From an uncultured Planctomycetales bacterium (lineage in GTDB: Bacteria; Omnitrophota; Gorgyraeia; Zapsychrales; JANLHA01): a stretch of DNA of 64,000 nucleotides. The translations under genes and the position numbers were made by a program. Location: the NCBI GenBank assembly GCA_964474085.1, contig CAYYRJ010000014.1, positions 603 to 64,602 of the forward strand. The letters run 5' to 3'. The notes beneath the pieces were generated by a model. That model ran no database searches and was not told where the DNA came from. It saw only the letters and a list, made by a program, of their open reading frames with translations. Shown here piece after piece: positions 1 to 42,335 of this stretch (its first letter is position 1; each line of letters starts with the position of its first letter).

Positions 1-10
1 TGTCTTAGGG

Positions 11-3000
11 ATGCAAGCAGCGTATGACCAATATTTAATAAAAAATCCTAAAACTGCAGTTGCTGTCAAGATAATTATTTCCCGCAAAGATGTTGACGAC
101 CAAACAGCAATTGAACAAACACAAAGATTAGAGATTTCCCAATCGGTTGAGTTGGCAAATCTTATCCAAGAGCATATTCATGTTCTGGAACGTGCTCCAG
201 TGCCAGCAAGGGAAGTTATTCATACGCTGAATGTTTTCTTGCAAAATATTGATTTGCTTTCACAGTTTACGCCAAGTTTGCGGGACTTGCCGGCCAGGTC
301 ACTTATTCGGGAAGTTTTGGCGCAGTTAAGATTTGTTTTGTCACGTGATCAATACACGGAACGTCACATGCTTTTGCTTATTGCAATTATTGAAAATAAT
401 AAAATAAGCCGAGAAATAGTTTTGCAGGCTAAAAATGTTCTTGATGTTTTCTTGTATAGCGCGCCTGTTAAAGCCGTAGTTATTACTGAGAAGGTGACTA
501 AAAGAGTTGTTGAGGCGTTTACTAAACCTCAATTAAATAGAACGCGGCATATTATGTTTGCGGATGTTTTACAAACGATTTTTAGAGTACAAACTGAAAT
601 TATTCAGGCTGTTAACGAATGGTTAACGCAAGCGGTGGATGCAGCAGAAGAAATTAATAAAAGAGCTGTTGTTGGGATGAGCATTATTTTTGAAGATTTA
701 CTTCAATTGACTCCTGCAAATAATCAAGATCGCGTCCTTATGCGACTTTTGCATTTCTTAAGTATTAAAGCTCTTGAATCGGTCGTCTATCAGTTGATTG
801 GGACAGCATTGGTCAATAAGACCCTTAATTTCCCGGGTCAATTATCCGATGATTTTATACAAACATTGTTTGAAACATTTGAGAAAAAAGAAATAGACTC
901 TCGTGCTTTAGTTGTCATGTCTGCGATGATTGCGAATCTCGCCCAAAGAAAATCACAGGTTATTCTTGCGCGCCGAGAGGCTCTTGTCGAAAGAGCGCTT
1001 GTTCTTATCCCGACTTTGAACCATTGGGGCGCGTATATTTCTTTACTCAATATGGTTGAAGCTTTGGGCGTTAAAACAAATCATATACAACATGACCTTG
1101 ATCGGTACTATCCAAACGCGACAGAAAGGATACAGCAAGATTTTGTGGTTATGGTCAATCGGATCAATCGTGAGCACCCTGGGTTTATTAAGAAAATTAC
1201 CATGATCACGTCTTCGTTTACGAAATTTAATATGCACTTTGGTTCTGACTTTGATTTTATGCATGTTTGGCATCGTGCGGATGCAGATTCGGAAGAAATT
1301 GCTGTTGTTAGAGCAAAAATTTTAGATGCCATATTTAATATGGGTATTTCAACAGGCGTAACACAATGGGATGAGTTAACTTTAATTCAGGAAGGGTTAG
1401 CGCATCCCATACATATTCTTTCGTCCGTTGAAATTGTTGTTATTTATAAGAAAAAGAGCTTTGATTTAAGTAAACGTGGAGAGCTAGACCCGCGTGAAAA
1501 AATTGTCGTGCGTTCCAAATTGTTTGAACAGCAAAACAATTTGCCGATGAAGCTGATGCGCAGAATACATGGCGTTTGGGCGATTGCGACTTTGCATGGC
1601 CAGCAATTGTCGCCGCTTTTTGTTGATCGAGAAGATTTGGAAGATTTGCGTGATTTGCATCGCCAAGGGTTTATTTATTTGGACGAAATGATGCACAAAC
1701 TTACGCCTCGCTGGAGCGAGCCTAAGACGATTGAGTATCATGTTGTGACCGCCTCCAGCGCGCTGATATCTGCGCCGATCCAGTATTTTAAGAACAACAG
1801 GTTGGCCGACTTTGCGATGGAAGTATTTATGCCTTTATTTGAGAGCACAAGAAAGCATTACGGGGAGCTGTTGAAGAAAGAGCGCAACGTAAGTTTTATG
1901 AGTCAGCAGAGTATTGTTGCCGCAGAGGTTTACAGCATGAAGGTGGCCGAGGGATTGGTGTATTACTTTATCGCGCGTAGCGAAAATGAAGCTTTGTCAG
2001 ATATTTCTTTTGATCAGATAGTGCGCAAGTTGATAGGCCAAAAGAAATCTTTGCCGATGGATAAATTGTATAAGCTGGGCGATTGGATATTTGTAGCGAC
2101 GCATGAGAATATCAAAAAGGTTTCTGGTGATTACACGGATGATAATAATAGATCTGTTTTTGAGCCAGTCGTTTCGTATCTTCAAGATGCGTTTGCATCT
2201 ATCCACGGCCAAGTGATTAAATTCGTATCAGTGCCCAAAACTCCAGAGAGTGATGCCGGATCCTCCAGCTCGGCGGTGGCTTCTAGCCCGGTTAAGTATT
2301 TTGAGAACAGCAGGTTGGCCGACGCTGTAGGGACGTTGCCGAGGAATTTAGAGAGTGTGTCAATGCAAGTATTTATCCGGCTATCTGCCAGCACAAGAAA
2401 ATATTACGGGGAACTGCTGAATAAAGAGCACGACGTAAGGTTTATGAGTCAGCAGAGTATTGTTGCGGCAGAGGTCTACAGCATGAAGGTGGCAGAGGGA
2501 TTGGTGTATTACTTTATCGACAGCAGTGCGAATGAAACTTTATCAGATATTTCTTTCGATGGGGTGGTGCGCAAGTTGATTGGCCAAAGGAAAGTTTTAT
2601 CGACGGATAAAATGTATAAGTTGGGTAGCTGGATATTTGTAGCGACGCATGTGAATACTGAAAAGTTTGGTGGCGTTTACCCTGATGATAAAAACGGATC
2701 TGTTTTTCAACCAGTCGTTTCGTATCTTCAAGATGCGTTTGTATCTATCCACAACCGCGTGATTCAATTCGCATCAGTGCTGAAAACCTCAAAGAGTAAT
2801 ATCGGATCTTCTAGTTTGGTTGTGGCAACCAATGACTTGCAACATTCTCAAAGTGTAAGTTTCTCGTCGATTAACCTTGGATCCGGACGAAAGCCGGCGG
2901 AGGTTGTGCAGGCATTGGGCGCCTCCAGCGCGATTGGCAAGGCCAGTTCTCAAGTTGGGCAAGACAGACTTAATGTCAACTGGGAAATGGTGGTTTCGTA

Positions 3001-6000
3001 TCTGGAAGCGATCGGTCTAGATTTAGACGGCACGCTTTATCACAATGCAGAGTATAGCCAACAATGCAGGAGCCTTGGTTTGCAATTTATTGCGAAAGAG
3101 AAAAAGATCAGCTTGGATATAGCGCAAAGGCAGTTTTTGAAAGCCAGAAGCAAGATGGCTTTAGAAATCGGCCATCAGCCGGCGGCGATGTATGTCCTTC
3201 CCCAATTAGGGATATCAATCGCCGAGTGGGAAAAATATTATAATGAGCACATGTTCCCTGGGAAATATATTGTTCGTGATGAGCGTTTGCAGGAGTTATT
3301 AATCCAAGCGCGCAGTTACGGGCTTAAGATCTTTTTGTTGACCAATAATACACGCACCCAGACGATCCAGATTTTAGCGGCCTTGGGGATCATTGATCTT
3401 TTTGATTTGGTGATTACCCGCAGTGAATTGCACGCGCCTAAACCTAGTCCTCGCGCCTTTGAGGCTGCAATAGAAATATTAGGTGTTATGCCGAGACGTA
3501 CGATTTATCTGGGAGATAGTCATGATATGGATTGTTCCCCTGCCCTAAAGGGTGGTATGCGCGCATTATGGGCGCCGATGGAAAATGGAAATATCTATTT
3601 TGCTCTTGAACAAATTATTAAATGGATGGTCATAGAACATCGCAAGCGCCAAGAAGATCCTAATTGGCAGGGGCTTGTTATGGAAGATTTAAAAGAAGCG
3701 ATGTCTCAAAATCATTTTGCGTCGAGTCCCCGCGCCTCCAGCGCGGCAGTGGATTATGTCGAGTTGCGCGCAAAAGGATTATTGTCGGACCCCGTTGTGG
3801 TGACAGTGGTTTTTGCTAAGGGGCAGTTAAGGGTAAACACGGTTGATCGGATGCGGCAAGACCAAGAAGCTTTAGTGGCTGGCTTTAAACAACAATTAAC
3901 AGCATGGTTATCGAAGTTCTCCGGCGCTCCGCCTTTGCCGGAGAACATAACGTTGCAAATTTCACTTATTTCCTTAAGATCAGGTGAAGTTTTTAGAGTT
4001 ACCCCGCAGGGCTTACAAATTAATCAAGCTGTTATCAATCTTCCCAAAATTCTTTCACTTCATATTTTAAATTATATCTTTATAAGTTATTTGACCTCGG
4101 ACGACGATGCTTTTGCCGCTGACTTGCAGTCGTTTGAAGGGGGCTATGCGCAAGGGCAAGTTGCATTAAATGTCGTTGAATTTATCGAGGCTGCTAGACA
4201 GTATCGTCTTGTTTTATCGGAACGTTTTGAATCGGCTTTATTAAATTTAGCTGTCAAAAATTTGTATGGTCATCTTAGCGGGAAAGTGCGCGGGTTTATG
4301 TTTACGGATTCTCAAGGTCAACCGGGGATTTACGCCGGATTTCCAAATTTTCCAAATGAGTGGGGACGGGATACGCTTATCACCCTTTATGGGTTAATGA
4401 GTTTGGGCGAAAGGCAGTTGTGCCTTGAAATTATTCTTAAGTGGGCGCGTTTGGTTGATGTTCGTCGAAAAGATGGCCGATTGATGCCTAATGGAATGGG
4501 CAATTGGAATACGAGCGATGCGCCTTTATGGTTGATTTTAAATGTTGGCGAATATGTGCGCAGGTTTAAAAATAGTACAGTTTTGGATGTCCCAATGACA
4601 GCTGACGCTAAAACTTTACGTGATGTTCTTCGGGAGATTGTTTTGCGTTACGCGATGACCAAAAAGGAACTTTCTGCTAATGGTATCGACGAGAACGGCA
4701 TTCATAGTGATAAGGCAACGGGCTTTATCTGGTCACCTAAGCAGGCGACATGGATGGACACAGTTAATACGCACCGTCAAGGTTACCCGGTTGAAATTAC
4801 CGCCCTTTGGTATGGCGCGCTGCGGACGATGGCGGATATTGACAGTGAATATTCTAATCGCTACCAAGAACTTGCGCAGAAAGTAAAAGAAAACTTTTTA
4901 TCTTACTTTTGGAATGATTCAGAAGAATGTTTGTTTGATATTTTAGGTACCGCCCATGTTGATAAAGCCATGGATGCAGTCAAGGATCCAGCAGTTCGTC
5001 CGAACCAGATTTTTGCGGTTTGGACAGGATTAGTCGACGGGCAAAAGGCGGATGAAATTTTAAAGAAAATTTACAGTGAATTATTGCTCCCCGGGGCTTT
5101 GCGTAGTCTTGCTCGTCCGGTAAAAAGATATCGTAGTGATTTTGATGCGCCCAGATGGCCTTATGCCGAGTATCAACCGTTTTATGAGAGTCAACAACCG
5201 GTGGAAGTTCGTGATCGCGCTTACCATAATGGAACCGGCTGGGTGTGGTTATATCCATTTTTTTGGGTAACGGCTGTTAACAGCGAGGCGCGTTTGTCAT
5301 ATACGAATGTTGACGATGCCTTATGGACCATGGTCAATGATTTGACCCGCTTGAGTCATGACCGGGATGAAAACACTTTCGGCTCTCTTCCTGAGCTTGT
5401 TGATGCGACAGCGTCTATCCTCAAAGATGTTCATGGGACGGAGTATCTCTATGCGCATCCTAAAGGATGCCGTCAACAGGCCTGGAGCGTGGCTATTTCG
5501 CTTTGGGGATTAGCCCAATTGGCGCAAAAGTACGGGATCGTCCTTGAGGATATCGAATTTCGACAATTTGGTTCAACAATAAAATATGTTCGTATAAATC
5601 CTGCTGCCGGCGAGAATGTCGCGGTTGGCCCTTATGAAACAATTTCCGTTGATATTATAGTTGAAACAACCGGCCCAGCTTGCCGTGAAGAATTAAAAAT
5701 AGAACTTTTTACGAACATGGATCATCCTGACGTCTGGCAGGCGATCTCTATTGATCCATCGAAGATTAGTTTAGTTTCTCAGGGCATCATGGGGAATGTT
5801 TATCAGGCGCGGATATCTATTGCCCCTCGAAATATTGGGCCTTTTGCTTTGACGGCACGGGCTCAATTTATTTATCAAAATCAGCCGACATGGGTTGGCG
5901 GTGATGTTCTCGTGATGGTTTATCGTTTGCCCAAATGGCTTTTAGCGCAGCGCTATCACCCGAGTTATATTTTTATTCCCGACATCCTCAAGGAAGGATG

Positions 6001-9000
6001 CTCTTTGAATTGGACAGGTTTGTTGGATTATTTAAGAATGCAAAAACAAAAAACCGGTAAAAATGTATTTTTCTTATCGCCGTTTTTTCCGACGGCAGAT
6101 GAATCACCGTTTGCGGCCATTTCTGTTTATGCGTTGAATCCTTCACTCGTTGACTGGGCGGCGGTTGAAGATATCGGAGCTAATCCTTTCGAAAAATTTT
6201 ATTCTTTTCGCAAACTCGCAACGGCTGCAAGAAGAGAAGCCTTTGCGCGCTTAGCTGCACACGAAGAAGTTGAGCGCTACGCCAGTTTAGTGCAGCGCTC
6301 TATTCTTGAGGGACAAGATTTGGTTTATGGGAAGTCTTACGAAAATATTAGTTTATTGAATCGTCAGGACATCCATGAGTTTCTTATGTATGAACAATTT
6401 GTCGGTTTTGAGCAGCTGCATATTTTATTAATGGAAAACGGCATTCGTATTTTGGGAGATTTGCCATTTTTCCGTGCAATTAACGGAACGGATGTTTTTT
6501 ATAGAAAAGATTACTTTGCTCAACTTTCCGGCGAGATATTGAGTCCCGGGTTTAAGGACCCTTGCGGCGGCAATGAACAGATTTGGGGGGATTTGGCGGC
6601 ATGGGACGAGAGAAGGATCGAACAGATGCGTGACAACGGCGAGTTTGATCCGCGTATTTTACCGTTTATATTTTGGGACAGTGTTTTTGCTCAGGTTTTC
6701 GAAGATCCTATTCATAAAATATCTGGATGGCGGCTGGATGCATTTCACTTTTATGGTCGCGGCTCTTATGCCGAAAATGCCCAACGGATTGTTTGGTCGA
6801 CGAGACTTTGGGATGACGTCGCTTTGTATTTTCAGGAGCATGATCTTTTGGCCATGGTTGAACAATTAGGCGGGGATGGGCACGCTTATTTTCATCTTAA
6901 CGCGTTGGGGTATTTGCAAATTGCTTCTTTGTTAGACAGCGTCCCTTGGAAGACGGTCGAGGCTTTTTATGCCGAGCTGCTTAATGTTACCCGCGGAATG
7001 TCTTATACCGTTGTTGACACGCATGACACGGCTCGGTGGGCTGCTGAATATAGCGGTGATTTTAAAAGGCTTGGAGGCCTTAAAGACGTTAAGTCTTCAC
7101 TTGAATTGTTTGGTCCTGCATTTTTGGGGCTTTTACTTTTAGGCCCGCAAATGGAAGGAGTTTTATTAAGTTTAGGTGAAAAGGGAACATTGGCGCCCAT
7201 TAAGAGAGAAGAACGCCGGGGCGGAGTTGTGATCCGTTCTCTCTGGGGAACCAGCGAACTTGGAGAAGTTGATTTTTCTGATGTGGTACGCAAGTGCGTT
7301 GATATTCGAGAAGCGCATCCGGCCATCAGTCATTCTCGAATGATACCCGTGACGACAACAGATGCAAGCGTTAAGGCTTTTTTGAAAAAATGGGAGAATG
7401 ATATTCTTTTGATTATGGCGAATTTTAGCAGAGATCCTAAAGATATTACTGTTGTGCTTTCCCGTTTTCATTTGGGTTTGGAATTGCCAATTTTCTTTGG
7501 CCGGCCTGTTACAGTAAAAATAGAGGATCTTATTGATGATCATGGTAATTCGGTTGTCAATCTTGGTTTGCAGGATCGGATAAATTTTAATCCTCGTCTT
7601 CTTCCCGGAGAGTTCGCGGTTTTTTCTATTGAAAGTAAAATTGCTTCGGACAAAGCTTCTTCAACAGTTTTAGACAAAGAGTTATTGCAAGTTTTAGGGT
7701 ATCGAAAGCGGCATATTTTGATTGTCACCTCCGAGGCGGCGCCGTTTTCGCAAGTCGGAGGTGTCGCCGATGTTTTAGGGGAAGGCGCTCTTCCGTTGGC
7801 TTTAGCAACGCTGGGAAATGACGTTACGGTCGTGACGTATCTTTATAACGGCATTGATCAAGAGGAGCATGGCATTAAAAATACGAATCAGACGATAAGC
7901 GTGCAGATCGGTTCTCGCGAGGAAAAAATGGCGGTTTACAAAAAGGCGATAAAGGTTGGGCAGGGGAGCTTGACCTATTTCTTTTTGCGGCATCCTGTTT
8001 ATTCGTATAAAGCTTGTATTGAAGCTATTGAAATCCACCGGACGGTTGCTGAATACGATCGCTTTGTAAACGAAGGGGTCATCAGCCAAGGACTGGCAAG
8101 CGAAGATACGTATCAGTCTTTAATGACGAGAGTTAGAGAAATCGGATTTAGAAAACTCGATCAACTTGATCAGCGGCATCTGATTTCGCAAGAACAGTGG
8201 CCGACGATTTATCAGATTCATGGATATATGCATCAGCTGGCTTTAGAACAAGTGCTTGCTTTATCAAAGGGAGCGTTGGAAATCGGGATGGGTTTTGTGC
8301 AGACTGTTGACATTGTGCATGTGCATGATTGGTTGGTCGCCATGACTTTGATGCTTATGCGCCGGCATTCCCGTTATGAACAAGCTTATCACGGCAAGAG
8401 AAGTATTATGACGATTCATAATCTAGAACATCAAGGAAAATTCAATATTACCCTCTTTGATTTGCTGGGGATTAATCGTGATGCTTTGAGTTTAAGCGGA
8501 TTAAGAGACGGGGAACGGGCCATTGAGGCCGCGGAGTTTGAGGGAAATTTGAATTTGCTTAAGATCGGGTTAGTTTATGGTCTGATTAACACAGTCAGCC
8601 CAACATATGCTTTAGAAATTTTGACGCCTGAATTTGGAGAGCGGCTGGATGGGTTTTTGAAATACTTGTCGAGCATAAGAGGAAAGATTAGAGGGATTAT
8701 CAATGGTGTTGATTATAGTCTTTGGAGTCCGCATGTGGACAAGTATTTGGCGCAGCTTCAGGGCGATGGGCGCTATTCGCCTGAAAATATGTCTGGAAAA
8801 AAACTTGCGAAAGCAGCACTGCAGAAAGAATTTGGTTTGGCGCCCAGAGAAGATGTTTTTGTTTTAGGTGCGGTTTCACGCTTGGTTAATCAAAAGGGAT
8901 ATGATTTGGTTGTCGGGATTGATCCTAAATTTTTAACACAAGATATTCAGCTGGTCATCTTTGGAACTGGCGATGTTGGGATTCAGGAAAAATTACAGCG

Positions 9001-27000: not shown

Positions 27001-30000
27001 ATTTGAGGAATTGTGCGCCGTTATGGCTACAGCAGCGACGGAGAAAAATGGATCGCAAATTGCAGCGATTATTAAAGAGTACAAAATTCGTATCCTTCTG
27101 ATTTTTAATGACAAAGATTTTATCGCTTTAATTGGTAAGCAGATTCAACAGGATTATTCTAATGCTGGTGTCTTACTTAAAAATGTAACACAAGAGGTGG
27201 ATGTTAGCTCTGTGATGGCGCACAAGTATTTTGTCACCCATCCAGAGGAATTTGCGCAAACGGTCATTGAGTTTACGAAAAGAAGTTTTTCAGCATCCTC
27301 GGCGGTCGATTTGCAGATTCCCGCCGCCTCAAGCGGTATTGAAAATGAAAATTTATTGCTTTTGTTAAAAATTAAAATTGCGAAAGAAACTTTGGAAGAG
27401 TTTTTTAGGAATGCCACAGAGTCAGAGATTGATCAGCTTAAGAAACTGATGATGATTCTGCCAGCTGTTTGGCAAGCTGTTGAGAATGCCCTGTATCCTT
27501 GGGCGGATCACTATGATTTAGCGCAAGTTCAAAAACCGGCTGGTATTTTTAATTTACTTGCTAATCAAGATAAAGATTTAGTTGATCTTTTGCCGGATTT
27601 GCCGTCAGATGAGGTTATAGTTAGCCGCGATGCGAAGCGATTAAACGTGCGGATTTTGTTATCAGAAAATTATTTGAGCCGAAAAAGCCTTCGCAGGGAC
27701 ATGTTTTTGATACGAGCATTTTTTATGTTAGAAACAGGGATTATTCTTTCACCTGTTTTGGTGTCTGTCATTCTTGGGGCATTATCAACTTGGCGTTATG
27801 GTGTGGCTGTATATTTAACAAGCCTTTGGGTTGGAAGAAAATATATTTTATCTACGATCAAAGAATTATATTCTGAGTGGGCGTTGCGAAATTATACAGA
27901 AGTATTTGATTTAGAAATTGAATTAGACTACCAGAGTAAGAATGCATATCTGGGGCATGGACGTATGCACCGCGACCCGATTGTTTTAACTTTTCAGCAA
28001 AATGGGATTTCAGCTCAAGTCGCCAGCGCGGCAAAAGATTGGGTGCAAAAGCATTGGTTTTTAGAACAGCTTATCCCTTGGTTAGCCTCGCGAGAAAAAA
28101 ACAGAAAATATTCTTTTGATTATTTTGTTGTCAAACATGTTTTAGATCGAAGCCGTGCGATGTTTGAAGCGCTTGGATTTCATGTCGTCAAATACGCACA
28201 GGACGATACTCCGATTGCGGTTTATGATCTTAAGGCATTTCGTCAAATACAAGCCCAACAAATAGACTCCAGCGCCTCCTCGGCATTGGCTATTTCGTTA
28301 CATCAAGTTTTTCGAGTTGCCGGTCTTCGTCGGGATATTGATGTTTCGAATTTCAAATTTGCACCTTACGTTGGTAAATTGCGCTATGTTGTCGGAAAAG
28401 GAGGATATGTCTTTTTTGTGAGGGAGGCTGATTTTCAAAATCATCAACTTTACCGGTTAACTTTTCGTTTGACAGAGATTAATCCGTATTTGGGCCCTTT
28501 TGGTCAAGAGCTCGTTGATCAACAAGAAAATTTTGTCAATGCGACCATTGACCTAGCCCGACAGATTGCCTCTTTGGGTGTCGGAGATGTTTTGGATATT
28601 CAAATCAATGAACTGTATCGGTCTTTGGGAGGACTAGGATCTGTCTTTTTATCTTTGCTCATTGAAGAGTTGTATATGCGCCAGATTAAAACTTTAAAAG
28701 TTTATGGACCGACGGTGCCTGCGTTTTATCGAAATCTTGGATTAGCTTGGATTGCAGGTGGTAATAAGGCGATGATTCTAAAATTATCCGATAAACAACA
28801 ACAACTTTATCCATGGCAAATTCAAGCTGTCGCGGCTAAAAGAGGATGGATTGTTCTCGAGGCGCTTGACTGCGGAGATTTTAAAGTGCTCCCGCATTTG
28901 TTAATTGAAAACACGGCGCTGAAAGAAAATTTCTCATTTTTCTCTGCAGAAGAGATTTCTTCCTCAACAGTAACAGCACAATATCTTGCGCAGGTGATTG
29001 GGGAATCTCTAGGGCAGAGCACAATTGAAGATTTTATTAACACCACGATTGTTTTGACAGAAGAGGAACATCGAACGGTAATTTTGACAGATCCACAGGA
29101 AAAAATGATTGTCACAATAATCCGTGTGCTTGCCAAGACCCATGGTATTGCTGTTGCAGAGATTTATGAGCAGCTGCGCTTATGGGTCAGTTGTTTCTAT
29201 GAGGAAGTTAAAAGAACAGATGAGTTTTACCGTGCAGACACGCAAGTTGTTAAAGCGGTTTTGACAGCTTTAGGCCCAACGGTTGCTCCGAGAAGAATTA
29301 ATCTTTTAGAATTATTTTGGTCAGGAAATTATAATCCGTTTGTTCAACAAGTCGAGTTGTGTCGTGTGCCCGGAGTAGATTTGTCCGTTTATAGAATACA
29401 ACAACCTGGGGATTGGCAAAAATATCAGTCAGCTTGCCGGCCTGCGATAAATGTTGTTTTCTTAAGTGCATTAGTGAGAAAAGGGCATGCTTTGCTTTAC
29501 AGCGCATATAAAATGCTTACGCAAAATACGCGTGGGGCGATTGTTGTTGCTTTTGCCAATGCGTATAACGATAGCGATGAGGATGAGCTTAAGAATTTTG
29601 TGCAGCAAAAAAATATTAAGATTCACAAAGTTGAATTTTCCGCGCATACATTCTTTATCCTTTCCGTCGATAAAAGAAACACAAAACAAGTCTCATCGTC
29701 TAGTGCTCTGATAGAAGCAGCTTCAAGGTTACTGTCGCCGGAGAGTTTAACAAAGACTCAAAGAGTCGTTGCGCTTTTGCAAAAGTTTGGCGCCCAGCCG
29801 TCAACGATTGCCGCGGCGTGGTTAGCGTATATCCCCGATGCTAAGTTAGCCGAATTGTCATCGGCAAAGAAACGATCCCGTCCAAAAGATTTAGCCCCGT
29901 ACGTTGCCCGAGCAGAACATTTCAAAACAATAAGTAATATCATTTACATCCCATCCGTCGATGAAAACGGTCGGCTTAAAGATCCTCGCGGCCTTGAACG

Positions 30001-33000
30001 ATGGTTGACGTATTTTGTCAAGGTCATATCCGATGGCCAGGCTTTTCTTTTTGCTGTCGCGGATGTTATGGCTGATTTAGAAGCGTCACAAGATGCTGAT
30101 GTCGCTCGGCGGGCCTATTTTGAACAAAAAGCGATGCATATTTTTGTAACGCTTGCCAACTTTTTTGGTTTGCATGAAATGGCCCGGGATTTGCGTGTGT
30201 TGGCACTGAGAATTGTTAATCTGGATCTCTATCAAAGAATCAGCGAGTTTATTGATAAAATAGACGGTGATTTGGATGCAGACCAAAAAGATTCATATCT
30301 TGTACAAACCAAAGACAACCTTAAGGAATTTTTGGAAAGAAACGGGATTTCAGAGGAAGTTTATTATTCTTGGAGGAAAAAAGACCCAGCATCTTTTGGC
30401 AATGTCATGGTGCGAAAAGGAAAAAATCCCGATGATGTCGATGATTTTTACGGTATTATCATTGTCGCGCCAACCAAAGAAGAGCGCGATCACATAGCAA
30501 GCCTTCTCTATGCGATTTCTGATTTTAATGTTTCTCCGCATCTGAAATATTCAAATTTTGAAATGCATGCGCTGCCTAAAAAACCATTTGAAGCCCTGCA
30601 GTTTAAACACAAAGATTCTAGTCGTCGTCCGTTTGACATTTATGTTTTTGATAAAGTCAATTATGATTTATACCGGACTGCGGTTTCGGCAGCGCATTGG
30701 GAATATTCTGCTCACAAGAATGCGGCTTTACGGCAACAAAAACTGGATCTGTTCCCTCACTTTAAGCCATCAAGGAATATTGACCAAGATTTTACTCAAT
30801 TGAGTAATCATTTTGTCGGTAAAAACGTTGCTATTCTTGTTCGGCCTATTAAAAACAATCTTAAGCCAAGCGATGATGAACAATACGAATTAATTCCGCG
30901 GGATTTTCCGATCAAGGCCATCCCTGCGGATGTTGCGGCGCAATGGAGATTTAATCGGTTAGGTGAAAATTATTTTGGTGCATATCCGGTGGTGCTTGGT
31001 TTGTACTTTGAAGACGTGTCATTGATTCTTGAGGCGCGAAAGATTCACCAAAAACTCAAGGAAACACAACCTTTACCCGTCGGAACAATACTGATGATTG
31101 CGGATCACTCCAATGGGTCTTCTGTCCATTTGGATAAGATATTTACGAAGGCGACAACGCCCCGAGCACGGCTTATGTCCAAATTGATAGGCTTAAATTC
31201 TCAAGAACGAAAAAATCTAGTCGCGCAAGGCCGAGAGAAACTTGTCGAGATCGCCCAATTGACTAACCGTAGTCGCGAAATACAGGCGCTGCAGCGTTTG
31301 AGCAATACCTTAGGGTTTAAGACAAACGATGGGATGGAAGAATTGTATCAGAGTGTTGCTTTAGGGTTAGTTGATGCTCAAGATATTCATGAAGCTTGGC
31401 AGGCATCTGGCCGTAAGCTTTTGGCCAGAGAAATGGGTATGGCTTGGATTAAGGATTTTGATGAACAGAGAGTACAGATTCGTCTCGAGTCTATTTTGGG
31501 GACATTTTCCAAATTATCTTTGAAGTATATCAGCAGTGTCCAAGGGTTCATTGAAGCCGTCGGCCGCGGGATGATTGAGCCGTCAGCGATTAAAGAAAAG
31601 TTGAGCTCCGGCGGGCTTTCGGCTATTTGGCAAATTACGAATGTGGAAAATAAAAGTGAATCACAAAACATTTTACACGTTACCGTTAAATATGATCGGC
31701 CGGGAATTTATTTGTCGTTAACGCGTATTTTGGCTCATTATGGAATTAATATAAGACGAATGAAGGATATTGGCGATATTGTTCATATTGAGGTTGATGC
31801 AATCAATGAGGCAAGGATTCTAAATGCTGTTGTTGAAGATATTCAAAATTTCATTCCGGATGTTCAAACCGACAGTGGTATTTTTTCGGTGGTGCTAGAT
31901 GTGTTTGCCGCTAATCGCATGAAGGTTTCGGCGAGAATGGCAAATTCTCCAGGTGAAATTTATAGACTTTTGAATGCCCTTTCAAAATTTGATCGAAAAA
32001 TTGGATATTCAAGTTTGACAGTTATTCCATCGTTTAATTATGCGGATGTTTTGATGACGCTTAATTTGCCGGCTGGTTTTTGTACAGATACGAAAGCGTA
32101 TCGCCAAGAAATTTTAAAGATCATGAATTCTGTCAGCGGAAATTCTGCTCGAGAAATTAACGGCCAAAGCTCATCATCATCAGCAATTCGAGATGACGGG
32201 CAAAGTGAAAAGAATTTATTGTCGATTGCCAATCGCGCGAGTCGTGGCGCGGACGTTAAGGTTCTGCGAAATATTGAGTTAGTGCGGCAAGAAGAATTTA
32301 GAAGAAAATATTTAGAGCGTCGGGCGCTGGTCGTTTGGCCGCGAGGGTATGAAAGAAAACAACGTGATCCTCGTCGTTATTTTGCGACGAATCATTCGGG
32401 GAGAGCGCAAATCATAGGCGTGAGTATAAATGAGATTTTGACAAACACGGATCGTTTTTCTATTCCAACAAATTCCAATAATTTATCACAGCGACAATCC
32501 GGTCGACGAATAAGGGTTATGCGCCTAACTGCAATTTTTGCCGGCATTGATGTGCGAAAAAATATGATGACAGTAAGTGCAGAAAAGAGTTTGGGGGAAA
32601 GGAATGCCTTAATTTCTCGTGGAGTGTTAACGACAATCTTTCAAGGACAGCTCATCGAAGAAGTCGTGCGCTTTCGTCCCGATGCGGTTAGTGTTGGGGC
32701 ATATGTTATCTCTGGAGTTCAAATTACGCCACAGATTAACTATCAAGGTCAATGGAAGGATTTGCAGAGAAGCTTAAGGATTTCGTATACAAAAATGCAA
32801 TATTTTAAATATTTGGTTATACGGGTCTGGAAATTAAGACCATTTTATTCTTTGGGGGCGAGGTTGCGCGAGTGGTTAAGTGCGTATAACGAAAATCATC
32901 ATCGGGCGATTTCGAGTGCGGTTGGCAATGATCACTCGTCGCCTGAATTTGATTATTCGCAATATTCTCTGGCAGTTGTTATTACAATTCTTTTGGTTAA

Positions 33001-33016
33001 TGTGAAACTAGGATAA
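11..33016 (+). CDS. Giant multidomain protein (>=11,001 aa; ORF open at 5' window edge, may extend upstream). Order: N-terminal helical region, tandem ~171-aa repeat, HAD phosphatase, GDE_C amylo-1,6-glucosidase, GH77 4-alpha-glucanotransferase, GlgA-like glycogen synthase, GH13-like alpha-amylase, unknown regions, SAM methyltransferase, radical SAM, HD-GYP, YvcK/CofD-like, HExxH, 6-phosphogluconolactonase-like, RelA/SpoT-like synthetase, ACT
   Basis: Single frame with no stop for 33,006 nt in a low-GC sequence. Antisense and off-frame ORFs inside are all under 160 aa. Stop TAA at 33014-33016. Domain motifs read from the translation are listed in the sub-features below. Confidence 0.8.
   Translation: [11001 protein letters not shown]
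1760..2790 (+). repeat. Tandem in-frame duplication, two ~513-nt (171-aa) units (approx 1760-2272 and 2273-2790) inside the giant ORF
   Basis: Peptides ...[33 protein letters not shown]...[24 protein letters not shown]... and ...[12 protein letters not shown]...[13 protein letters not shown]...[24 protein letters not shown]... Near-identical nucleotide stretches, e.g. agtcagcagagtattgttgc(c/g)gcagaggt(t/c)tacagcatgaaggtggc(c/a)gagggattggtgtattactttatcg. Confidence 0.8.
3010..3600 (+). other. HAD-superfamily phosphatase domain (subfamily IA, beta-phosphoglucomutase/phosphatase-like)
   Basis: Motif I LDLDGTL, motif II LLTNNT, motif III KPSP, motif IV GDSHDMD in ...[11 protein letters not shown]...[10 protein letters not shown]...[11 protein letters not shown]...[10 protein letters not shown]... 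Confidence 0.6.
4150..5520 (+). other. Amylo-alpha-1,6-glucosidase (glycogen debranching enzyme C-terminal, GDE_C-like) domain
   Basis: ...[20 protein letters not shown]...[17 protein letters not shown]...[14 protein letters not shown]...[13 protein letters not shown]. YHNG-x-xWxW is the hallmark of the GDE_C alpha/alpha barrel. Confidence 0.6.
5960..7620 (+). other. GH77 4-alpha-glucanotransferase (amylomaltase/MalQ-like) domain
   Basis: ...[28 protein letters not shown]... resembles the GH77 GxxxxSPYxxxSxFAxNPLLI signature. Also WRLDAFHFY, and ...[14 protein letters not shown]... like the amylomaltase C-terminus. Confidence 0.6.
7700..9390 (+). other. Glycogen/starch synthase (GlgA, GT5) domain
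   Basis: N-terminus [40 protein letters not shown] matches the GlgA KILFVxSEVAPFAKTGGLADV signature. Also [32 protein letters not shown] and [33 protein letters not shown]. Confidence 0.75.
9400..11000 (+). other. GH13-like alpha-amylase-family catalytic domain plus C-terminal beta domain
   Basis: [11 protein letters not shown]...[11 protein letters not shown] (region I, DxVxNH), [10 protein letters not shown] (region II-like), [10 protein letters not shown] (region III-like), FTQNHDELP (region IV, xNHD). Confidence 0.45.
12230..12900 (+). repeat. Diverged internal repeat module B, copy 1 (~220 aa, unknown function)
   Basis: [17 protein letters not shown]...[30 protein letters not shown]...[12 protein letters not shown]...[23 protein letters not shown]...[14 protein letters not shown], paralogous to 17630-18295. 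Confidence 0.7.
14138..14161 (+). repeat. 24-nt GC-rich motif AGCGCGCCTGTGACCGGCCCGCCG (encodes SAPVTGPP), copy 1 of 3
   Basis: Exact 24/24 nucleotide identity with 18344-18367 and 19196-19219. About 80% GC on a low-GC background. Followed by a Ser-rich stretch. Confidence 0.9.
14780..15250 (+). other. Class I SAM-dependent methyltransferase domain
   Basis: Motif I [11 protein letters not shown], post-I acidic VRYFGVDIQ, later [12 protein letters not shown] (motif II/III-like). Confidence 0.45.
15750..16800 (+). other. Radical SAM domain with an extra C-terminal Cys-rich (SPASM/twitch-like?) segment
   Basis: CxxxCxxC = CPSLCTKC at 15796-15819. Gly-rich SAM motif STGGGEPF. Downstream cysteines CFPCSQP and DCIKDC. 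Confidence 0.55.
17630..18295 (+). repeat. Diverged internal repeat module B, copy 2
   Basis: [17 protein letters not shown]...[31 protein letters not shown]...[12 protein letters not shown]...[23 protein letters not shown]...[14 protein letters not shown]. Immediately followed by 24-nt motif copy 2. Confidence 0.7.
18344..18367 (+). repeat. 24-nt GC-rich motif, copy 2 of 3
   Basis: AGCGCGCCTGTGACCGGCCCGCCG identical to copies 1 and 3. Encodes ...[12 protein letters not shown]... Confidence 0.9.
18480..19050 (+). other. HD-GYP domain (c-di-GMP phosphodiesterase-type metal-dependent phosphohydrolase)
   Basis: [10 protein letters not shown]...ALIHDVGK...[14 protein letters not shown]...[14 protein letters not shown]. 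HD...HD...GYP signature. Confidence 0.7.
19196..19219 (+). repeat. 24-nt GC-rich motif, copy 3 of 3
   Basis: Identical to copies 1 and 2. 27-nt identity with copy 1 (CCAGCGCGCCTGTGACCGGCCCGCCGG). Encodes ...[11 protein letters not shown]... Confidence 0.9.
22430..24000 (+). other. YvcK/CofD-family (UPF0052, gluconeogenesis-factor / 2-phospho-L-lactate-transferase-like) domain
   Basis: [18 protein letters not shown]...[17 protein letters not shown]...[14 protein letters not shown] resembles the family GGGTG...DDGGSSG...PPGDxRN motifs. C-terminal [25 protein letters not shown] resembles the family xGPGSLYTSxxP signature. Confidence 0.55.
25380..26080 (+). other. 6-phosphogluconolactonase / glucosamine-6-P deaminase (NagB/Pgl)-like fold
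   Basis: [19 protein letters not shown]...[19 protein letters not shown]...[11 protein letters not shown] resembles vxLxGGxTP...DlxlLGmGxDGHtASlFP...GxxKa. Catalytic residues not verified. Confidence 0.4.
30100..30760 (+). other. RelA/SpoT-like (p)ppGpp synthetase (nucleotidyltransferase) domain
   Basis: [36 protein letters not shown] resembles the Rel segment PLAHRLGMxxIKxELEDLAFRYLxPxxYxxI. ...[24 protein letters not shown]... and ...[28 protein letters not shown] resemble EIQIRTxxMHxWAExGxAAHWxYK. Confidence 0.4.
31660..31870 (+). other. ACT-like regulatory domain
   Basis: [61 protein letters not shown]. beta-alpha-beta-beta-alpha-beta pattern typical of Rel C-terminal ACT. Confidence 0.35.
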
Positions 33017-34798: not shown

Positions 34799-34869
34799 GT
34801 GTTTTCCTTTCGTCATTCTGAGGAGCGCAGCGACGAAGAATCTTGTAAATAAGAGATCCTTCGCTTCGC

Positions 34870-37582: not shown

Positions 37583-37621
37583 CGCAACCATAATTTGAAA
37601 TTTCCTATCAACACTCGACAA

Positions 37622-41669: not shown

Positions 41670-42173
41670 ATGCTAGCTTTCGTTTTGTTGTTTGCAGGCA
41701 TTGCGTCCAGGCTGGTCGTTCATATGCCTAACTTTACACCGGTTTTAGCTCTTGCTTTATTCGGCGGCGTTTATTTAAGTTCTCGCCGGGCAGTATCTAT
41801 GCCGCTTGTGATGATGATTGTTTCTGATTTATTGATTGGCTTGCATGATACGATTCTTTTTACCTGGAGCAGTGTGCTTCTGATTTCGTTATTGGGTTTG
41901 TTTTTGCGTTCACGAAAAAGTTTTTCAAGCATTGCTTTAACTGCAGCATTGTCGGCGGTTTTATTTTTTGTTGTCACAAATTTTGGTGCGTGGCTTATGA
42001 TGTATCCCAAAACTCTTTTAGGGCTGCAGCAATGTTTTTGGGCGGCCGTGCCGTTTTTTCGTGATACGCTGCTTAGCACATTAATCTATAGCGCTGTTTT
42101 ATTCGGTGGGTATGAAGCACTTGCCGTATGGATTGCTAGGACCCGTTGGGCCAGAATTTTGCAACCAGTTTAG
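41670..42173 (+). CDS. Small polytopic membrane protein (about 5 TM), function unknown
   Basis: MLAFVLLFAGIASRLVVHMPNFTPVLALALFGGVYL... hydrophobic throughout. Confidence 0.5.
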   Translation: MLAFVLLFAGIASRLVVHMPNFTPVLALALFGGVYLSSRRAVSMPLVMMIVSDLLIGLHDTILFTWSSVLLISLLGLFLRSRKSFSSIALTAALSAVLFFVVTNFGAWLMMYPKTLLGLQQCFWAAVPFFRDTLLSTLIYSAVLFGGYEALAVWIARTRWARILQPV

Positions 42174-42204
42174 TCCTGTTCTGTTGAATATAAAATTGTG
42201 TGCG

Positions 42205-42335
42205 TTTTATCCGTAAGGATAATCCCGCGTCATATGCGGGAAAAGGGGAATCTCGTGAAAATCGGGAGCGGTCCCGCCACTGTGAATTTCGGATGTTTTT
42301 GATGCTCCGGAAAAGTCAGGTCGCCTAACGCAGCA
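42205..42335 (+). promoter_or_regulatory. Candidate cobalamin (B12) riboswitch upstream of the TonB-dependent receptor
   Basis: aaaaggggaatctcGTGAAAATCgggagcggtCCCGCCACTGTgaatttcgg contains the B12-box GCCACTG (42276-82). The preceding GGGAA...GTGAAAATCC...CCCGCC core matches the cobalamin riboswitch consensus. Position is in the 5' leader of a btuB-like gene. Confidence 0.6.

What the first reader, a model, noticed from the sequence alone, without database searches (positions are those of the whole stretch)
11..33016. A 33-kb single ORF encoding an >=11,001-aa multi-enzyme protein
No stop codon in one frame for 33,006 nt of low-GC sequence. Every antisense or off-frame ORF inside it is under 160 aa. 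I recognise at least a dozen enzyme and signalling domains in this one frame, listed individually in the features. No NRPS/PKS, Ig/cadherin or RTX-type repeat architecture is visible, so this is not the usual class of giant bacterial gene. The ORF is still open at nt 11 (codons at 2-10 are V-L-G), so the gene may be longer than the window shows. Giant multidomain genes are reported chiefly in a few candidate phyla (for example Omnitrophota). This particular domain combination looks undescribed to me.
Basis: partly seen in the sequence, partly recalled or inferred. Interest (0 to 1): 0.95.

Follow-up and report, generated by a model that had tools for sequence, protein, structure and literature searches.

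The report
Omnitrophota multi-enzyme giant gene fragment
The 33-kb open reading frame is real: it is the 3' part of a giant gene from an uncultured Omnitrophota bacterium that strings many ordinary enzymes into one polypeptide, a kind of gene already described for this phylum, although a short serine motif marking the module borders appears not to have been reported.

Summary
Observation confirmed. Frame 2 of the + strand is open from the window edge (nt 2) to TAA at 33014-33016, 11,004 codons; the other five frames carry 471-911 stops. It is real coding sequence: the codon-position signature is uniform, at least 12 enzyme or signalling domain families are detected, and an independent assembly (L010) keeps 8.2 kb of it open and collinear under purifying selection (dN/dS 0.27).

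MutS and MutL place the organism in Omnitrophota. In that phylum, multi-enzyme giant proteins carrying the same recurrent Pfam families are already catalogued by the thousand. This is therefore a new member of a known kind, and the gene is 5'-truncated: the source contig is only 65,172 bp.

Specific to this copy:
- An 11-kaa stretch with no conserved transmembrane helix, made of cytoplasm-type enzymes: a 2,427-aa glycogen block, HAD, radical SAM/SPASM, HD-GYP, DUF1152, CofD-like and a degenerate RelA/SpoT.
- No collinear relative except one near-conspecific; more distant relatives share shuffled modules.
- A junction motif, (A/G)-S-S-(S/A)-hydrophobic, at module borders. One 327-aa cassette lying between two such motifs is replaced in the near-conspecific.

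I read this stretch as a tethered cytoplasmic multi-enzyme string. Cleavage into separate enzymes at the motifs remains possible.

The parts
2..33016 (+). Giant ORF, 11,004 codons plus a TAA stop. It is open at the window's 5' edge, so the gene is 5'-truncated.
   Evidence: Uniform codon-position GC signature in 1.5-kb windows. dN/dS 0.27 against the independent assembly L010.
2..1504 (+). aa 1-501: unannotated region, predicted mostly alpha-helical at low confidence.
   Evidence: No Pfam hit above threshold. Single-sequence AF2 model has pLDDT 41, with aa 1-400 all-helical. No relatives found in the genome or metagenome scans.
1505..2845 (+). aa 502-948: tandem units of about 170-182 aa. Units 584-752 and 753-934 are 66% identical, and each ends in a G-SSS junction.
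3005..3604 (+). aa 1002-1201: HAD-IA phosphatase domain with motif I (DLDGT) intact.
   Evidence: PF00702 4e-19, PF13419 2.6e-18. TIGR02253 3.5e-25. Motif check.
4175..5494 (+). aa 1392-1831: glycogen debranching enzyme domain (GDE_C, amylo-alpha-1,6-glucosidase).
   Evidence: PF06202 8e-51. TIGR01561 3.6e-34.
6362..6523 (+). aa 2121-2174: core match to GH77 4-alpha-glucanotransferase. The full domain extent is unclear.
   Evidence: PF02446 3.2e-8, 33.3 bits against a cut-off of 25.
7706..9400 (+). aa 2569-3133: complete GlgA-type glycogen/starch synthase (GT5 + GT1) with an insertion of about 140 aa. The catalytic signature is conserved except that the Lys of KTGGL is Gln.
   Evidence: TIGR02095 5e-131, 437.6 bits against a cut-off of 328. 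PF08323 and PF00534. Alignment to PDB 2qzs, 3d1j and 4hln.
9464..10240 (+). aa 3155-3413: GH13 alpha-amylase-family catalytic domain, divergent.
   Evidence: PF00128 5.4e-6, 26.3 bits against a cut-off of 22. The canonical region II/IV regexes were not found.
12164..12877 (+). aa 4055-4292: copy 1 of a dispersed duplicated module of unknown function, preceded by 'TASSLL'.
14840..15292 (+). aa 4947-5097: class I SAM-dependent methyltransferase domain.
   Evidence: PF13489 3e-5 and PF08242. MftM-like match at 3e-10.
15782..16801 (+). aa 5261-5600: radical SAM domain with CPSLCTKC (CxxxCxxC) plus a SPASM-like cluster of five further Cys, in a protein that is 0.4% Cys overall.
   Evidence: PF04055 1.2e-6 and PF13186. 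TIGR04317. Cys positions; composition.
17558..18274 (+). aa 5853-6091: copy 2 of the dispersed duplicated module (about 50% identical to copy 1), lying between junction motifs at aa 5829 and 6133.
18482..19048 (+). aa 6161-6349: HD-GYP-type phosphodiesterase domain (HD at 6221; HHxxxDGxGYP at 6275-6285).
   Evidence: PF01966 8e-11 and PF13487 3e-10. PDB 4mcw 6e-13 and the cGAMP phosphodiesterase 5z7c 1e-11. Motifs.
19355..20548 (+). aa 6452-6849: DUF1152-like module with invariant GGGGD, DMGGD, HPE and GGDGE motifs. It is the module most widely shared with other very long proteins.
   Evidence: PF06626 4.7e-8. 30-42% identity to segments of proteins up to 6,428 aa. Alignment A3. No PDB relative.
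20639..22231 (+). aa 6880-7410: conserved module with HAD-like motif order (FADMDDNLAPR ... TDN ... K ... D). The assignment is tentative.
   Evidence: 31-35% identity to P0017, P0019, P0024, P0040 and P0047. Alignment A2. Only a sub-threshold alpha-phosphoglucomutase hit at E 0.39.
23306..24049 (+). aa 7769-8016: CofD/YvcK-like domain.
   Evidence: PF01933 2.6e-7, 30.5 bits against a cut-off of 30. TIGR01826 1e-9.
25430..26176 (+). aa 8477-8725: 6-phosphogluconolactonase / glucosamine-6-P isomerase-fold domain.
   Evidence: PF01182 1.4e-7, 32.1 bits against a cut-off of 27. TIGR01198 2.5e-6.
27296..28276 (+). aa 9099-9425: hypervariable cassette lying between two junction motifs. It contains the only TM-like segment (aa 9234-9270) and is non-homologous in the near-conspecific L010.
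   Evidence: BLASTP E 0.24 while the flanks are 70-79% identical. Identity breaks exactly at the motifs. Hydropathy.
28277..29692 (+). aa 9426-9897: two conserved modules of unknown function, 57% and 45% identical to P0003.
   Evidence: No Pfam or PDB relative. AF2 model unusable.
29693..32167 (+). aa 9898-10722: RelA/SpoT-homologue-like region with a weak ACT hit. The synthetase catalytic motif is degenerate (DIYVFD in place of ExQxRT).
   Evidence: PDB 9s6k 2e-9. TIGR00691 1e-7. PF04607, PF13328 and ACT are all weak.
32168..33013 (+). aa 10723-11004: C-terminal module, shared with the C-terminus of P0003 (30% identity) and with L010.
33020..37443 (-). mutL (33020-34816) and mutS (34870-37443), convergent on the giant ORF with 3 nt between the two stop codons. 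They serve as the positional anchor and the taxonomic markers.
   Evidence: The same arrangement, with a giant ORF next to mutL, occurs in L005, L006, L010 and L012.

Best explanation
This is the 3' portion (at least 11,004 codons) of a genuine giant gene of an uncultured Omnitrophota bacterium. It belongs to the already described class of multi-enzyme giant proteins (the 'Archaeovorin' type of West-Roberts 2023 and class 1 of Nielsen & Lui 2026).

Shown: the polypeptide is a string of roughly 17 autonomous modules.
- A 2,427-aa block without internal junctions holds all four types of alpha-glucan/glycogen enzyme: debranching enzyme, GH77 transferase, a GlgA synthase with an intact catalytic signature, and a GH13 domain.
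- The other recognised modules are two HAD-type phosphatase modules, a SAM methyltransferase, a radical SAM/SPASM enzyme, an HD-GYP phosphodiesterase, DUF1152-like, CofD/YvcK-like and 6PGL-fold domains, and a catalytically degenerate RelA/SpoT-like region.
- Modules are separated by a short motif, (A/G)-S-S-(S/A)-hydrophobic.
- Modules behave as units of evolution. Distant relatives share them in a different order, and one cassette between two motifs is replaced in a near-conspecific genome.

Inferred: this stretch has no conserved transmembrane helix, and its domains need cytoplasmic substrates and cofactors (ADP-glucose, SAM, Fe-S clusters, cyclic dinucleotides). The visible 11 kaa therefore most likely sits in the cytoplasm. 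It would work as a covalently tethered multi-enzyme assembly that fixes the stoichiometry and co-localisation of glycogen turnover and associated phosphatase, cofactor and second-messenger functions in an ultra-small cell. Any membrane anchor would lie in the missing N-terminal part.
For: - **Real coding frame:**
- **Independent confirmation:** L010, from a different assembly, keeps 8.2 kb open and collinear at 66-74% aa identity. dN/dS is 0.27, against 0.09 for mutS and mutL of the same pair.
- **Taxon:** MutS 57-63% and MutL 45-54% identical to Omnitrophota MAGs, then <=45% and <=32% for other phyla.
- **Domains:**
- **Catalytic motifs intact:** HAD DLDGT, radical SAM CxxxCxxC plus a Cys cluster, HD...GYP, and GlgA HDW/SRLxxQKG/EPCGLTQLY/TGGLADTV.
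- **Same recurrent Pfam set as the published catalogues:**
- **Soluble character:** 31 of 10,985 hydropathy windows reach 1.6, versus 105 of 408 in an MFS control. The only TM-like segment is absent from L010.
- **Mosaic relatives:** no hit spans a 1,200-aa query among 1.84e9 representatives. P0003 shares six modules, one of them displaced.
- **Junction motif:** 17 observed versus 2.8 expected here; 68 versus 12.3 in 34 module-sharing fragments; no enrichment in controls. Sites fall at independently defined borders.
- **Cassette replacement exactly between two motifs:**
Against: - The 5' end is missing, so total length, N-terminal anchors, SecA-like or peptidase domains, and overall topology are unknown.
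- Published catalogues find TM helices or signal peptides in 94% of such proteins, and their authors favour a surface or predation role.
- About 55-60% of this sequence has no recognisable domain. Some detected domains are below Pfam cut-offs (methyltransferase, radical SAM by 0.3 bit) or degenerate (RelA/SpoT-like; the Lys of the GlgA KTGGL loop is Gln).
- There is no transcript, peptide or enzymatic evidence.
- Hydropathy analysis is a crude substitute for a dedicated topology predictor.
- The taxonomy of the module-sharing fragments is unknown, because that library carries no names.
Confidence: 0.75

Rival explanations
1. Polyprotein. The giant ORF is translated once and then cleaved at the (A/G)-S-S-(S/A)-hydrophobic junctions into about 17 separate enzymes, the largest being a 270-kDa glycogen-metabolism protein. 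On this reading the gene works as an operon encoded within one polypeptide.
For: The motif is position-specific, conserved at the protein level with varying Ser codons, sits at module borders, and travels with modules when they are shuffled. West-Roberts et al. proposed cleavage because C39/S8 peptidase domains occur in such proteins, and stated that cleavage points were unknown.
Against: No peptidase domain is detected in the visible 11 kaa. The motif could equally be a flexible linker or a domain N-cap. The residue at -1 is A or G in only about 60% of sites. There is no proteomic evidence.
Confidence: 0.2
2. Surface 'coat' or predation machine, the published hypothesis for Omnitrophota giants. 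On this reading the modules are displayed outside the cell and act on prey cell-wall polysaccharides.
For: Literature: V. archaeovorus giant-protein peptides rise 3-fold in attached cells. 94% of catalogued giants have TM helices or signal peptides, and secretion or pilus genes often flank them. Glycoside-hydrolase-type domains are present here.
Against: There is no conserved TM helix or signal peptide in 11,004 aa. The domains need ADP-glucose, SAM, a reduced [4Fe-4S] cluster or cyclic nucleotides. The glycan enzymes are of the glycogen type, not the murein type. No secretion or pilus genes lie in the 31 kb downstream.
Confidence: 0.12
3. Assembly chimera or non-functional open frame. On this reading the 33 kb were stitched together from different genes or organisms, or are an unconstrained remnant.
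For: The source is a metagenomic contig. Two independent contigs both end inside the gene. Much of the sequence has no homologue.
Against: Zero stops in 11,004 codons, with a uniform codon-position signature and GC skew. L010 reproduces the last 8.2 kb across several module junctions and continues into the same mutL-mutS neighbourhood. dN/dS is 0.27. P0003 independently links six of the modules in one ORF.
Confidence: 0.03

Closest known systems
'Archaeovorin'-type giant proteins of Omnitrophota (West-Roberts et al. 2023, bioRxiv 10.1101/2023.11.21.568195; type protein: Ca. Velamenicoccus archaeovorus LiM, 39,678 aa)
   Same: Omnitrophota host. One enormous ORF carrying GT5 glycogen-synthase-like plus GT1 domains, methyltransferases, glycosyl hydrolases and sugar-phosphate enzymes. 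Domains are divergent and large parts are unannotated (searches compared).
   Different: The visible part has no TM helices and no SecA_DEAD, peptidase, NUDIX or HEAT/TPR hits. Length beyond 11 kaa is unknown. Homology to the type protein could not be tested. The content points to the cytoplasm, not to the extracellular location those authors favour.
Class 1 'multi-enzyme metabolic cluster' long proteins (Nielsen & Lui 2026, bioRxiv 10.64898/2026.06.07.730766)
   Same: >=10 kaa, with many distinct Pfams tiling the polypeptide and none dominating. The same recurrent families occur: PF08323, PF00534, PF04055, PF13419, HD, methyltransferase. The sequence is unique, as in 80% of their clusters.
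   Different: Their catalogue averages about 22 TM helices per >=10-kaa protein, and only 6% are 'globular'. This stretch has none that is conserved. They report no junction motif and no cassette exchange.
Multi-enzyme fusion proteins and processed polyproteins in general (eukaryotic AROM, CAD and type I fatty-acid synthase; viral polyproteins). This comparison rests on my own background knowledge.
   Same: Several catalytic activities of one pathway sit on one chain (here the GDE-GH77-GlgA-GH13 block). Stoichiometry is fixed by co-translation. Short, conserved inter-module junctions could serve as linkers or as cleavage sites.
   Different: This protein is far larger and functionally heterogeneous. 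No carrier-domain or channelling logic is evident, no protease has been identified, and module order is not conserved between relatives.
Stand-alone bacterial glycogen enzymes (GlgA, GlgX/GDE, MalQ, GH13)
   Same: The GlgA domain scores above the TIGR02095 family cut-off and keeps the catalytic Glu/Arg/Lys signature. GDE_C scores 8e-51.
   Different: The enzymes are embedded in one 2,427-aa junction-free block of a giant protein. GlgA has an insertion of about 140 aa and Gln in place of the Lys of KTGGL. No GlgC or GlgP domain was detected.
Classical giant bacterial genes: NRPS/PKS megasynthases and RTX/Ig/cadherin adhesins (for example in Chlorobium chlorochromatii)
   Same: Only the size.
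   Different: No condensation, adenylation, carrier or KS domains and no adhesin repeats are detected. About 92% of the protein is non-repetitive.

Membership tests
Omnitrophota giant proteins, Archaeovorin type (West-Roberts 2023) | Encoded in an Omnitrophota genome | tested here: met
   Of the seven closest non-conspecific MutS loci, six are MAGs labelled Omnitrophota/Omnitrophica and one is labelled only 'bacterium' (57-63% identity); other phyla reach <=45%. MutL is 45-54% versus <=32%. Caveat: the near-conspecific L010 is labelled 'uncultured Planctomycetales' in its record.
Omnitrophota giant proteins, Archaeovorin type (West-Roberts 2023) | Gene >90 kb / protein >30,000 aa | not testable with these tools
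   The ORF is open at the window edge and the source contig is only 65,172 bp. Attempts to extend upstream failed.
Omnitrophota giant proteins, Archaeovorin type (West-Roberts 2023) | Consistent content of glycosyl transferases (GT5/GT1), methyltransferases and glycosyl hydrolases | tested here: met
   PF08323, PF00534/TIGR02095, PF06202, PF02446, PF00128, PF13489.
Omnitrophota giant proteins, Archaeovorin type (West-Roberts 2023) | Peptidase (C39/S8) and NUDIX domains | tested here: not met
   None detected in the visible 11,004 aa. They are reported mainly near N-termini, which are missing here.
Omnitrophota giant proteins, Archaeovorin type (West-Roberts 2023) | Numerous transmembrane helices and a divergent SecA_DEAD domain | tested here: not met
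   No SecA hit. Only one TM-like segment, which is not conserved. These features may lie in the missing 5' part.
Omnitrophota giant proteins, Archaeovorin type (West-Roberts 2023) | Sequence homology to the V. archaeovorus LiM type protein | not tested
Class 1 multi-enzyme metabolic cluster long proteins (Nielsen & Lui 2026) | Omnitrophota protein >=10,000 aa | tested here: met
   11,004 codons as a minimum. Taxon.
Class 1 multi-enzyme metabolic cluster long proteins (Nielsen & Lui 2026) | [quoted passage not shown] | tested here: met
   At least 12 distinct families, each present once or twice. Only two internal duplications, covering about 8% of the length.
Class 1 multi-enzyme metabolic cluster long proteins (Nielsen & Lui 2026) | Carries the recurrent sugar-metabolism and signalling module Pfams (PF08323, PF00534, PF04055, PF13419, HD, methyltransferase) | tested here: met
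   All are found and match the list quoted.
Class 1 multi-enzyme metabolic cluster long proteins (Nielsen & Lui 2026) | Membrane-anchored architecture (TM helices or signal peptide in 94%; about 2% of residues in TM helices) | tested here: inconclusive
   The visible part is essentially soluble, but the N-terminus is missing and no dedicated topology predictor was available.
NRPS/PKS megasynthases; RTX/Ig/cadherin adhesins | Condensation, adenylation, carrier or KS domains, or long arrays of adhesin repeats | tested here: not met
   No such Pfam or NCBIfam hits.
Anti-phage defence systems | Match to known defence-protein profiles | tested here: not met
   PADLOC gave 0 hits over aa 1-9600.

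The most novel reading that the evidence does not exclude
The (A/G)-S-S-(S/A)-hydrophobic junction is a functional signal that defines the modules of a subset of Omnitrophota giant proteins. On this reading it marks the sites where a dedicated protease cuts the giant precursor into separate enzymes, so the gene is an 'operon in one polypeptide'. The same junctions would also be the only places where cassettes can be swapped between strains without destroying the product. The clean replacement of aa 9099-9425 between the window and L010 fits that. This would supply the 'cleavage points' that West-Roberts et al. said were missing.
Probability: 0.2. Interest if true: 0.8.

Novelty: new member of a known kind. 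Interest (0 to 1): 0.4.

Why it matters
The ORF itself adds one more, incomplete, example to a class of Omnitrophota giant proteins already counted in the thousands, so it changes little on its own. Three things in it bear on open questions about that class.

1. Here is an 11,000-residue stretch that is soluble and built from cytoplasm-type enzymes, including a probably active glycogen synthase. That argues against a purely extracellular, prey-degrading role for at least this type.
2. A near-conspecific pair shows how fast these proteins evolve and in what manner: dN is four times that of mutS/mutL, and a whole module has been replaced.
3. The junction motif gives a concrete, testable candidate for module borders or processing sites. 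Whether giant proteins act as one chain or are cleaved is explicitly unresolved in the literature. A defined motif would let existing metaproteomes and the published catalogue be re-analysed directly.

Tried and rejected
- **Word-indexed protein search:** three queries (5,000, 900 and 477 aa) returned no scoring hit. I attribute this to the tool's candidate step, not to true absence, because the exhaustive search did find relatives.
- **Upstream extension of the ORF:** genome scan and JGI metagenome scan with the N-terminal 500 aa found nothing. A metagenome scan with the module alignment A1 also found nothing.
- **Retrieving the 65,172-bp source contig:** failed. Only short contigs of the same organism were found.
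- **Structure prediction:** two single-sequence AlphaFold runs (aa 9425-9901 and aa 1-583) gave pLDDT 39 and 41. They are unusable, so no fold searches were run. Alignments containing non-window proteins are not accepted by that tool.
- **Profile searches of PDB:** nothing significant for the unknown modules A1, A2 and A3.
- **GNAT assignment for aa 9425-9640:** suggested by a 'YRSLGGLG...FYRNLG' pattern, but not supported by Pfam, so dropped.
- **C-terminal tail anchor:** the hydrophobic tail is only about 13 residues long and is not conserved in P0003, so rejected.
- **TM helix at aa 9234-9270 as a conserved anchor:** absent from L010, so rejected.
- **Defence-system reading:** no PADLOC hits.
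- **Introns, ribozymes or other RNA families inside the ORF:** none.
- **Internal promoters or terminators:** counts equal shuffled expectation, so uninformative.
- **DNA-level repeat as the cause of the junction motif:** rejected, because the Ser codons differ between sites.
- **My own error:** the first whole-protein self-BLAST missed two internal duplications. This was corrected by pairwise and tiled BLAST.
Full report
**Observation.** The + strand frame beginning at nt 2 runs without a stop to TAA at 33014-33016, a total of 11,004 codons. The other five frames of the same span hold 471-911 stops, so a chance open frame of this length is excluded (P < 1e-200 at the lowest of those rates). 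No off-frame or antisense ORF inside exceeds 156 aa. The codon-position signature holds in 21 of 22 full 1.5-kb windows (GC1 0.46-0.57, above GC3 and GC2). GC skew is positive along the whole window. The amino-acid composition is that of an ordinary protein. The frame is open at the window edge, and the ATG at nt 11 has no evidential value as a start. Exact-sequence look-ups show that the window's genes sit on an NCBI contig of 65,172 bp. The window is therefore nearly the whole contig, and the gene is almost certainly cut by the contig end.

**Independent support for the frame.** A genome scan with the neighbouring MutS recovered L010 (CAYNSM010000007.1, 40,704 bp), from a different assembly project, with MutS 91% identical. 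Next to its mutL lies an ORF that is open for 8.2 kb up to the flank limit. That ORF is collinear with window aa 8262-11004 at 66-74% identity. Over 2,678 aligned codons dN/dS is 0.27 (dN 0.24, dS 0.89). For mutS and mutL of the same pair, dN/dS is 0.09 with dN 0.06. The giant ORF is thus under purifying selection but evolves about four times faster at the protein level than these two housekeeping neighbours. Other neighbours range from 64% to 100% identity. A chimeric or accidental frame is therefore very unlikely.

**Organism.** Besides L010, the closest MutS loci (57-63%) are six MAGs labelled Candidatus Omnitrophota/Omnitrophica and one labelled only 'bacterium'. Every other phylum is at 45% or less. 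MutL repeats the pattern: 45-54% against 32% or less. L010's own record label ('uncultured Planctomycetales') conflicts with this and is probably an automatic misassignment. The same organism also appears as short, low-coverage contigs in ENA ERZ4216102, two NCBI metagenome assemblies and a JGI metagenome.

**Architecture.** Coordinates below are aa of the 11,004-aa translation; aa i starts at nt 2+3(i-1).

| aa range | Module | Evidence |
|---|---|---|
| 1002-1201 | HAD-IA phosphatase | |
| 1392-1831 | Debranching enzyme (GDE_C) | 8e-51, |
| 2121-2174 | GH77 core | |
| 2569-3133 | Complete GlgA | TIGR02095, 437.6 bits, above its cut-off; |
| 3155-3413 | GH13 | |
| 4947-5097 | SAM methyltransferase | |
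| 5261-5600 | Radical SAM + SPASM | |
| 6161-6349 | HD-GYP | |
| 6452-6849 | DUF1152-like | |
| 7769-8016 | CofD/YvcK-like | |
| 8477-8725 | 6PGL/NagB fold | |
| 9898-10722 | RelA/SpoT-like with a weak ACT hit | |

- A further conserved module at aa 6880-7410 shows HAD-like motif order but has only sub-threshold support.
- About 55-60% of the chain has no recognisable domain.
- There are two internal duplications. One is a set of tandem ~175-aa units at aa 502-948 (66% identical). The other is a ~240-aa module at aa 4055-4292 and 5853-6091 (~50% identical). This corrects my earlier statement that there were none.
- No NRPS/PKS, adhesin-repeat, defence-system or RNA-family signal is present.

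**Are the enzymes likely to work?**
- HAD motif I (DLDGT) is intact.
- The radical SAM CxxxCxxC motif is intact and is followed by five further clustered cysteines, in a protein with 0.4% Cys overall.
- The HD...HHxxxDGxGYP signature is intact.
- GlgA keeps HDW, HNLxxQG, SRLxxQKG, EPCGLTQLY and TGGLADTV. Only the Lys of KTGGL is replaced (by Gln), and there is a ~140-aa insertion.
- By contrast, the RelA/SpoT-like synthetase motif ExQxRT reads DIYVFD, so that region is probably a non-catalytic remnant.

**Topology.** Only 31 of 10,985 19-residue windows reach Kyte-Doolittle 1.6, compared with 105 of 408 in the window's MFS transporter. The single TM-like segment (aa 9234-9270) lies in a hypervariable cassette and is absent from L010. 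The hydrophobic C-terminal tail is too short to span a membrane and is not conserved. The domains also require ADP-glucose, SAM, a reduced Fe-S cluster and nucleotide messengers. Together these points indicate a cytoplasmic location for the visible 11 kaa. This is an inference, not a demonstration.

**Relatives.**
- An exhaustive phmmer search of aa 5900-7099 against 1.84 billion representatives found no protein matching the whole query. Modules hit separately inside other very long proteins of up to 7,840 aa.
- P0003, a 3,183-aa fragment, shares six modules at 26-57% identity, including both C-termini. One of the six, the DUF1152-like module, sits at a different position.
- In four of the nine closest loci, a giant ORF converges on mutL exactly as in the window. 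Those of L005, L006 and L012 share no detectable sequence and have different domains (HTH/TPR/CAAX protease; radical SAM). Position is conserved and content is not.

**Junction motif.**
- Aligning the window, L010 and P0003 showed that modules start with 'ASSAL' and end with 'SSS'.
- In the window, SS[SA][SAP]?[LIVM] occurs 17 times against 2.8 expected from shuffles. 'ASSA' occurs 6 times against 0.3.
- Serine codons vary between sites, so the conservation is at the protein level.
- Sites coincide with borders defined independently by homology (aa 6869, 9099, 9426, 9653, 9898, 10723). Others lie about 28 aa ahead of Pfam domains (974 before HAD, 4919 before the methyltransferase, 6133 before HD-GYP).
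- In the homology-mapped region, three of four strict sites lie within 2 aa of a border (P about 0.01).
- The motif is enriched 5.5-fold in the 34 module-sharing fragments (68 versus 12.3). It is not enriched in 116 ordinary HD-GYP proteins (16 versus 13.4) or in the window's 20 neighbouring genes (1 versus 2.4).
- In P0003 each shuffled module is still preceded by the motif.
- The 327-aa cassette between the motifs at aa 9099 and 9426 has no detectable homology between the window and L010 (E 0.24). Its flanks are 70-79% identical, and identity breaks exactly at the two motifs.
- The glycogen enzymes form a single junction-free block of 2,427 aa.
- Neither giant-protein preprint mentions such a motif, and West-Roberts et al. 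state that cleavage points are unknown.

**Comparison with the literature.**
- Seymour et al. 2023 report ORFs longer than 20 kb in most Omnitrophota classes and call them poorly conserved.
- West-Roberts et al. 2023 define Archaeovorins by GT5/GT1, methyltransferase, glycosyl hydrolase, peptidase and NUDIX content. They add many TM helices and SecA-like domains, and favour an extracellular prey-degrading role.
- Nielsen & Lui 2026 catalogue 916 long proteins and describe a 'multi-enzyme metabolic cluster' class. Its recurrent Pfams are those found here. They report 94% membrane-targeted proteins, about 22 TM helices per protein of 10 kaa or more, and 80% singleton clusters.
- The window ORF meets the taxon, size (>=10 kaa), tiling and domain-set criteria.
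- It does not show TM, SecA, peptidase or NUDIX features in the visible part. That may reflect the missing N-terminus.
- I therefore file it as a new, incomplete member of a known kind.

**Mechanism and rivals.**
- *Best supported (confidence 0.75 overall).* This is a real Omnitrophota giant gene. The cytoplasmic-metabolon step carries roughly 0.5. The visible part is a tethered cytoplasmic string of enzyme modules. It centres on glycogen turnover, with phosphatase, SAM/radical-SAM and second-messenger modules, and it evolves by module exchange at defined junctions.
- *Polyprotein cleaved at the junction motifs (0.2).* This is compatible with all the data, but there is no protease or peptide evidence.
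- *Published surface/predation model applied to this stretch (0.12).* It is disfavoured by the lack of export signals, by the cofactor requirements, and by the housekeeping neighbourhood with no secretion or pilus genes.
- *Assembly artefact (0.03).*

**Verdict.** The claim of an undescribed kind is not. Overall interest is moderate (0.4). The ORF itself is expected for this phylum. The soluble cytoplasm-type content, the strain-level cassette replacement and the junction motif are new, checkable leads on whether and where such giants are processed.

Noticed in passing
window aa sites 584, 753, 935, 974, 1245, 3672, 4756, 4919, 5829, 6133, 6869, 9098, 9425, 9653, 9898, 10723 (nt = 2+3(aa-1)); also L010 and proteins P0003, P0008, P0011, P0013: A short junction motif, (A/G)-S-S-(S/A)-hydrophobic or SSS(S/P)-hydrophobic, marks module borders. 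It is enriched 5-6 fold over composition-matched shuffles in this protein and in 34 module-sharing long fragments. It is not enriched in ordinary proteins or in the unrelated giants L005, L006 and L012. Neither giant-protein preprint mentions it.
   Followed up: yes
window 27296-28276 (aa 9099-9425) versus L010:19075-20031(-): A 327-aa cassette lying between two junction motifs is non-homologous between two genomes whose MutS proteins are 91% identical. Identity of 70-79% stops and resumes exactly at the motifs. The window's version contains the ORF's only TM-like segment.
   Followed up: yes
L005:15005-22636(-), L006:14890-22539(-), L012:14390-22546(-); also L006:1-8035(-): Other Omnitrophota MAGs also have a giant ORF converging on mutL and still open at the 10-kb flank limit. 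These ORFs share no detectable sequence with the window's and have different domains (HTH/TPR/CAAX protease; radical SAM). L006 has giant ORFs on both sides of mutS-mutL. The position appears conserved while the content turns over.
   Followed up: partly
window 1505-2845; 12164-12877 and 17558-18274: There are two internal duplications inside the giant ORF. One is a set of tandem ~175-aa units (66% identical). The other is a dispersed ~240-aa module present twice, 1,800 aa apart (~50% identical). Neither has a Pfam match. A whole-protein self-BLAST missed both.
   Followed up: partly
window 19355-20548 (aa 6452-6849): The DUF1152-like module is the piece most widely shared with other very long proteins (30-42% identity in more than 25 representatives). 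It has invariant GGGGD, DMGGD, HPE and GGDGE motifs and no relative of known structure. It looks like a conserved enzyme of unknown function that recurs in giant proteins.
   Followed up: partly
window 42186-42346 (+), with 41670-42173 and 42421-44466: A cobalamin riboswitch (40.5 bits, above the gathering score) sits directly upstream of a TonB-dependent receptor and just after a DUF6580 gene, suggesting a B12-uptake locus. Nielsen & Lui report canonical Bacteroidetes-type TonB-dependent receptor / sus-cluster import loci as absent from their Omnitrophota collection.
   Followed up: no
window 37595-40780 (+): A 1,061-aa protein with a signal peptide, one TPR and a long Lys/Glu/Gln-rich coiled-coil region. 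It accounts for the strong positive AT skew at 38-40 kb. It is 79% identical in L010, so it is also fast-evolving.
   Followed up: partly
window 44527-46683 (+): The YfhO-like membrane protein is only 64% identical between the window and L010, while adjacent genes are 93-100% identical. It is a second rapidly diverging, probably envelope-related, gene in the locus.
   Followed up: no
L010 (CAYNSM010000007.1): The record is labelled 'uncultured Planctomycetales bacterium', but its MutS and MutL, like the window's, are closest to Omnitrophota MAGs. The public taxonomic label is probably wrong.
   Followed up: partly
window 56262-56337 and 56512-56584 (+): tRNA-Phe(GAA) and tRNA-Thr(CGT) lie in the gap before two TPR/PMT_2-type membrane protein genes. 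Many ORFs in the window are listed with TTG or GTG as their first possible start codon.
   Followed up: no
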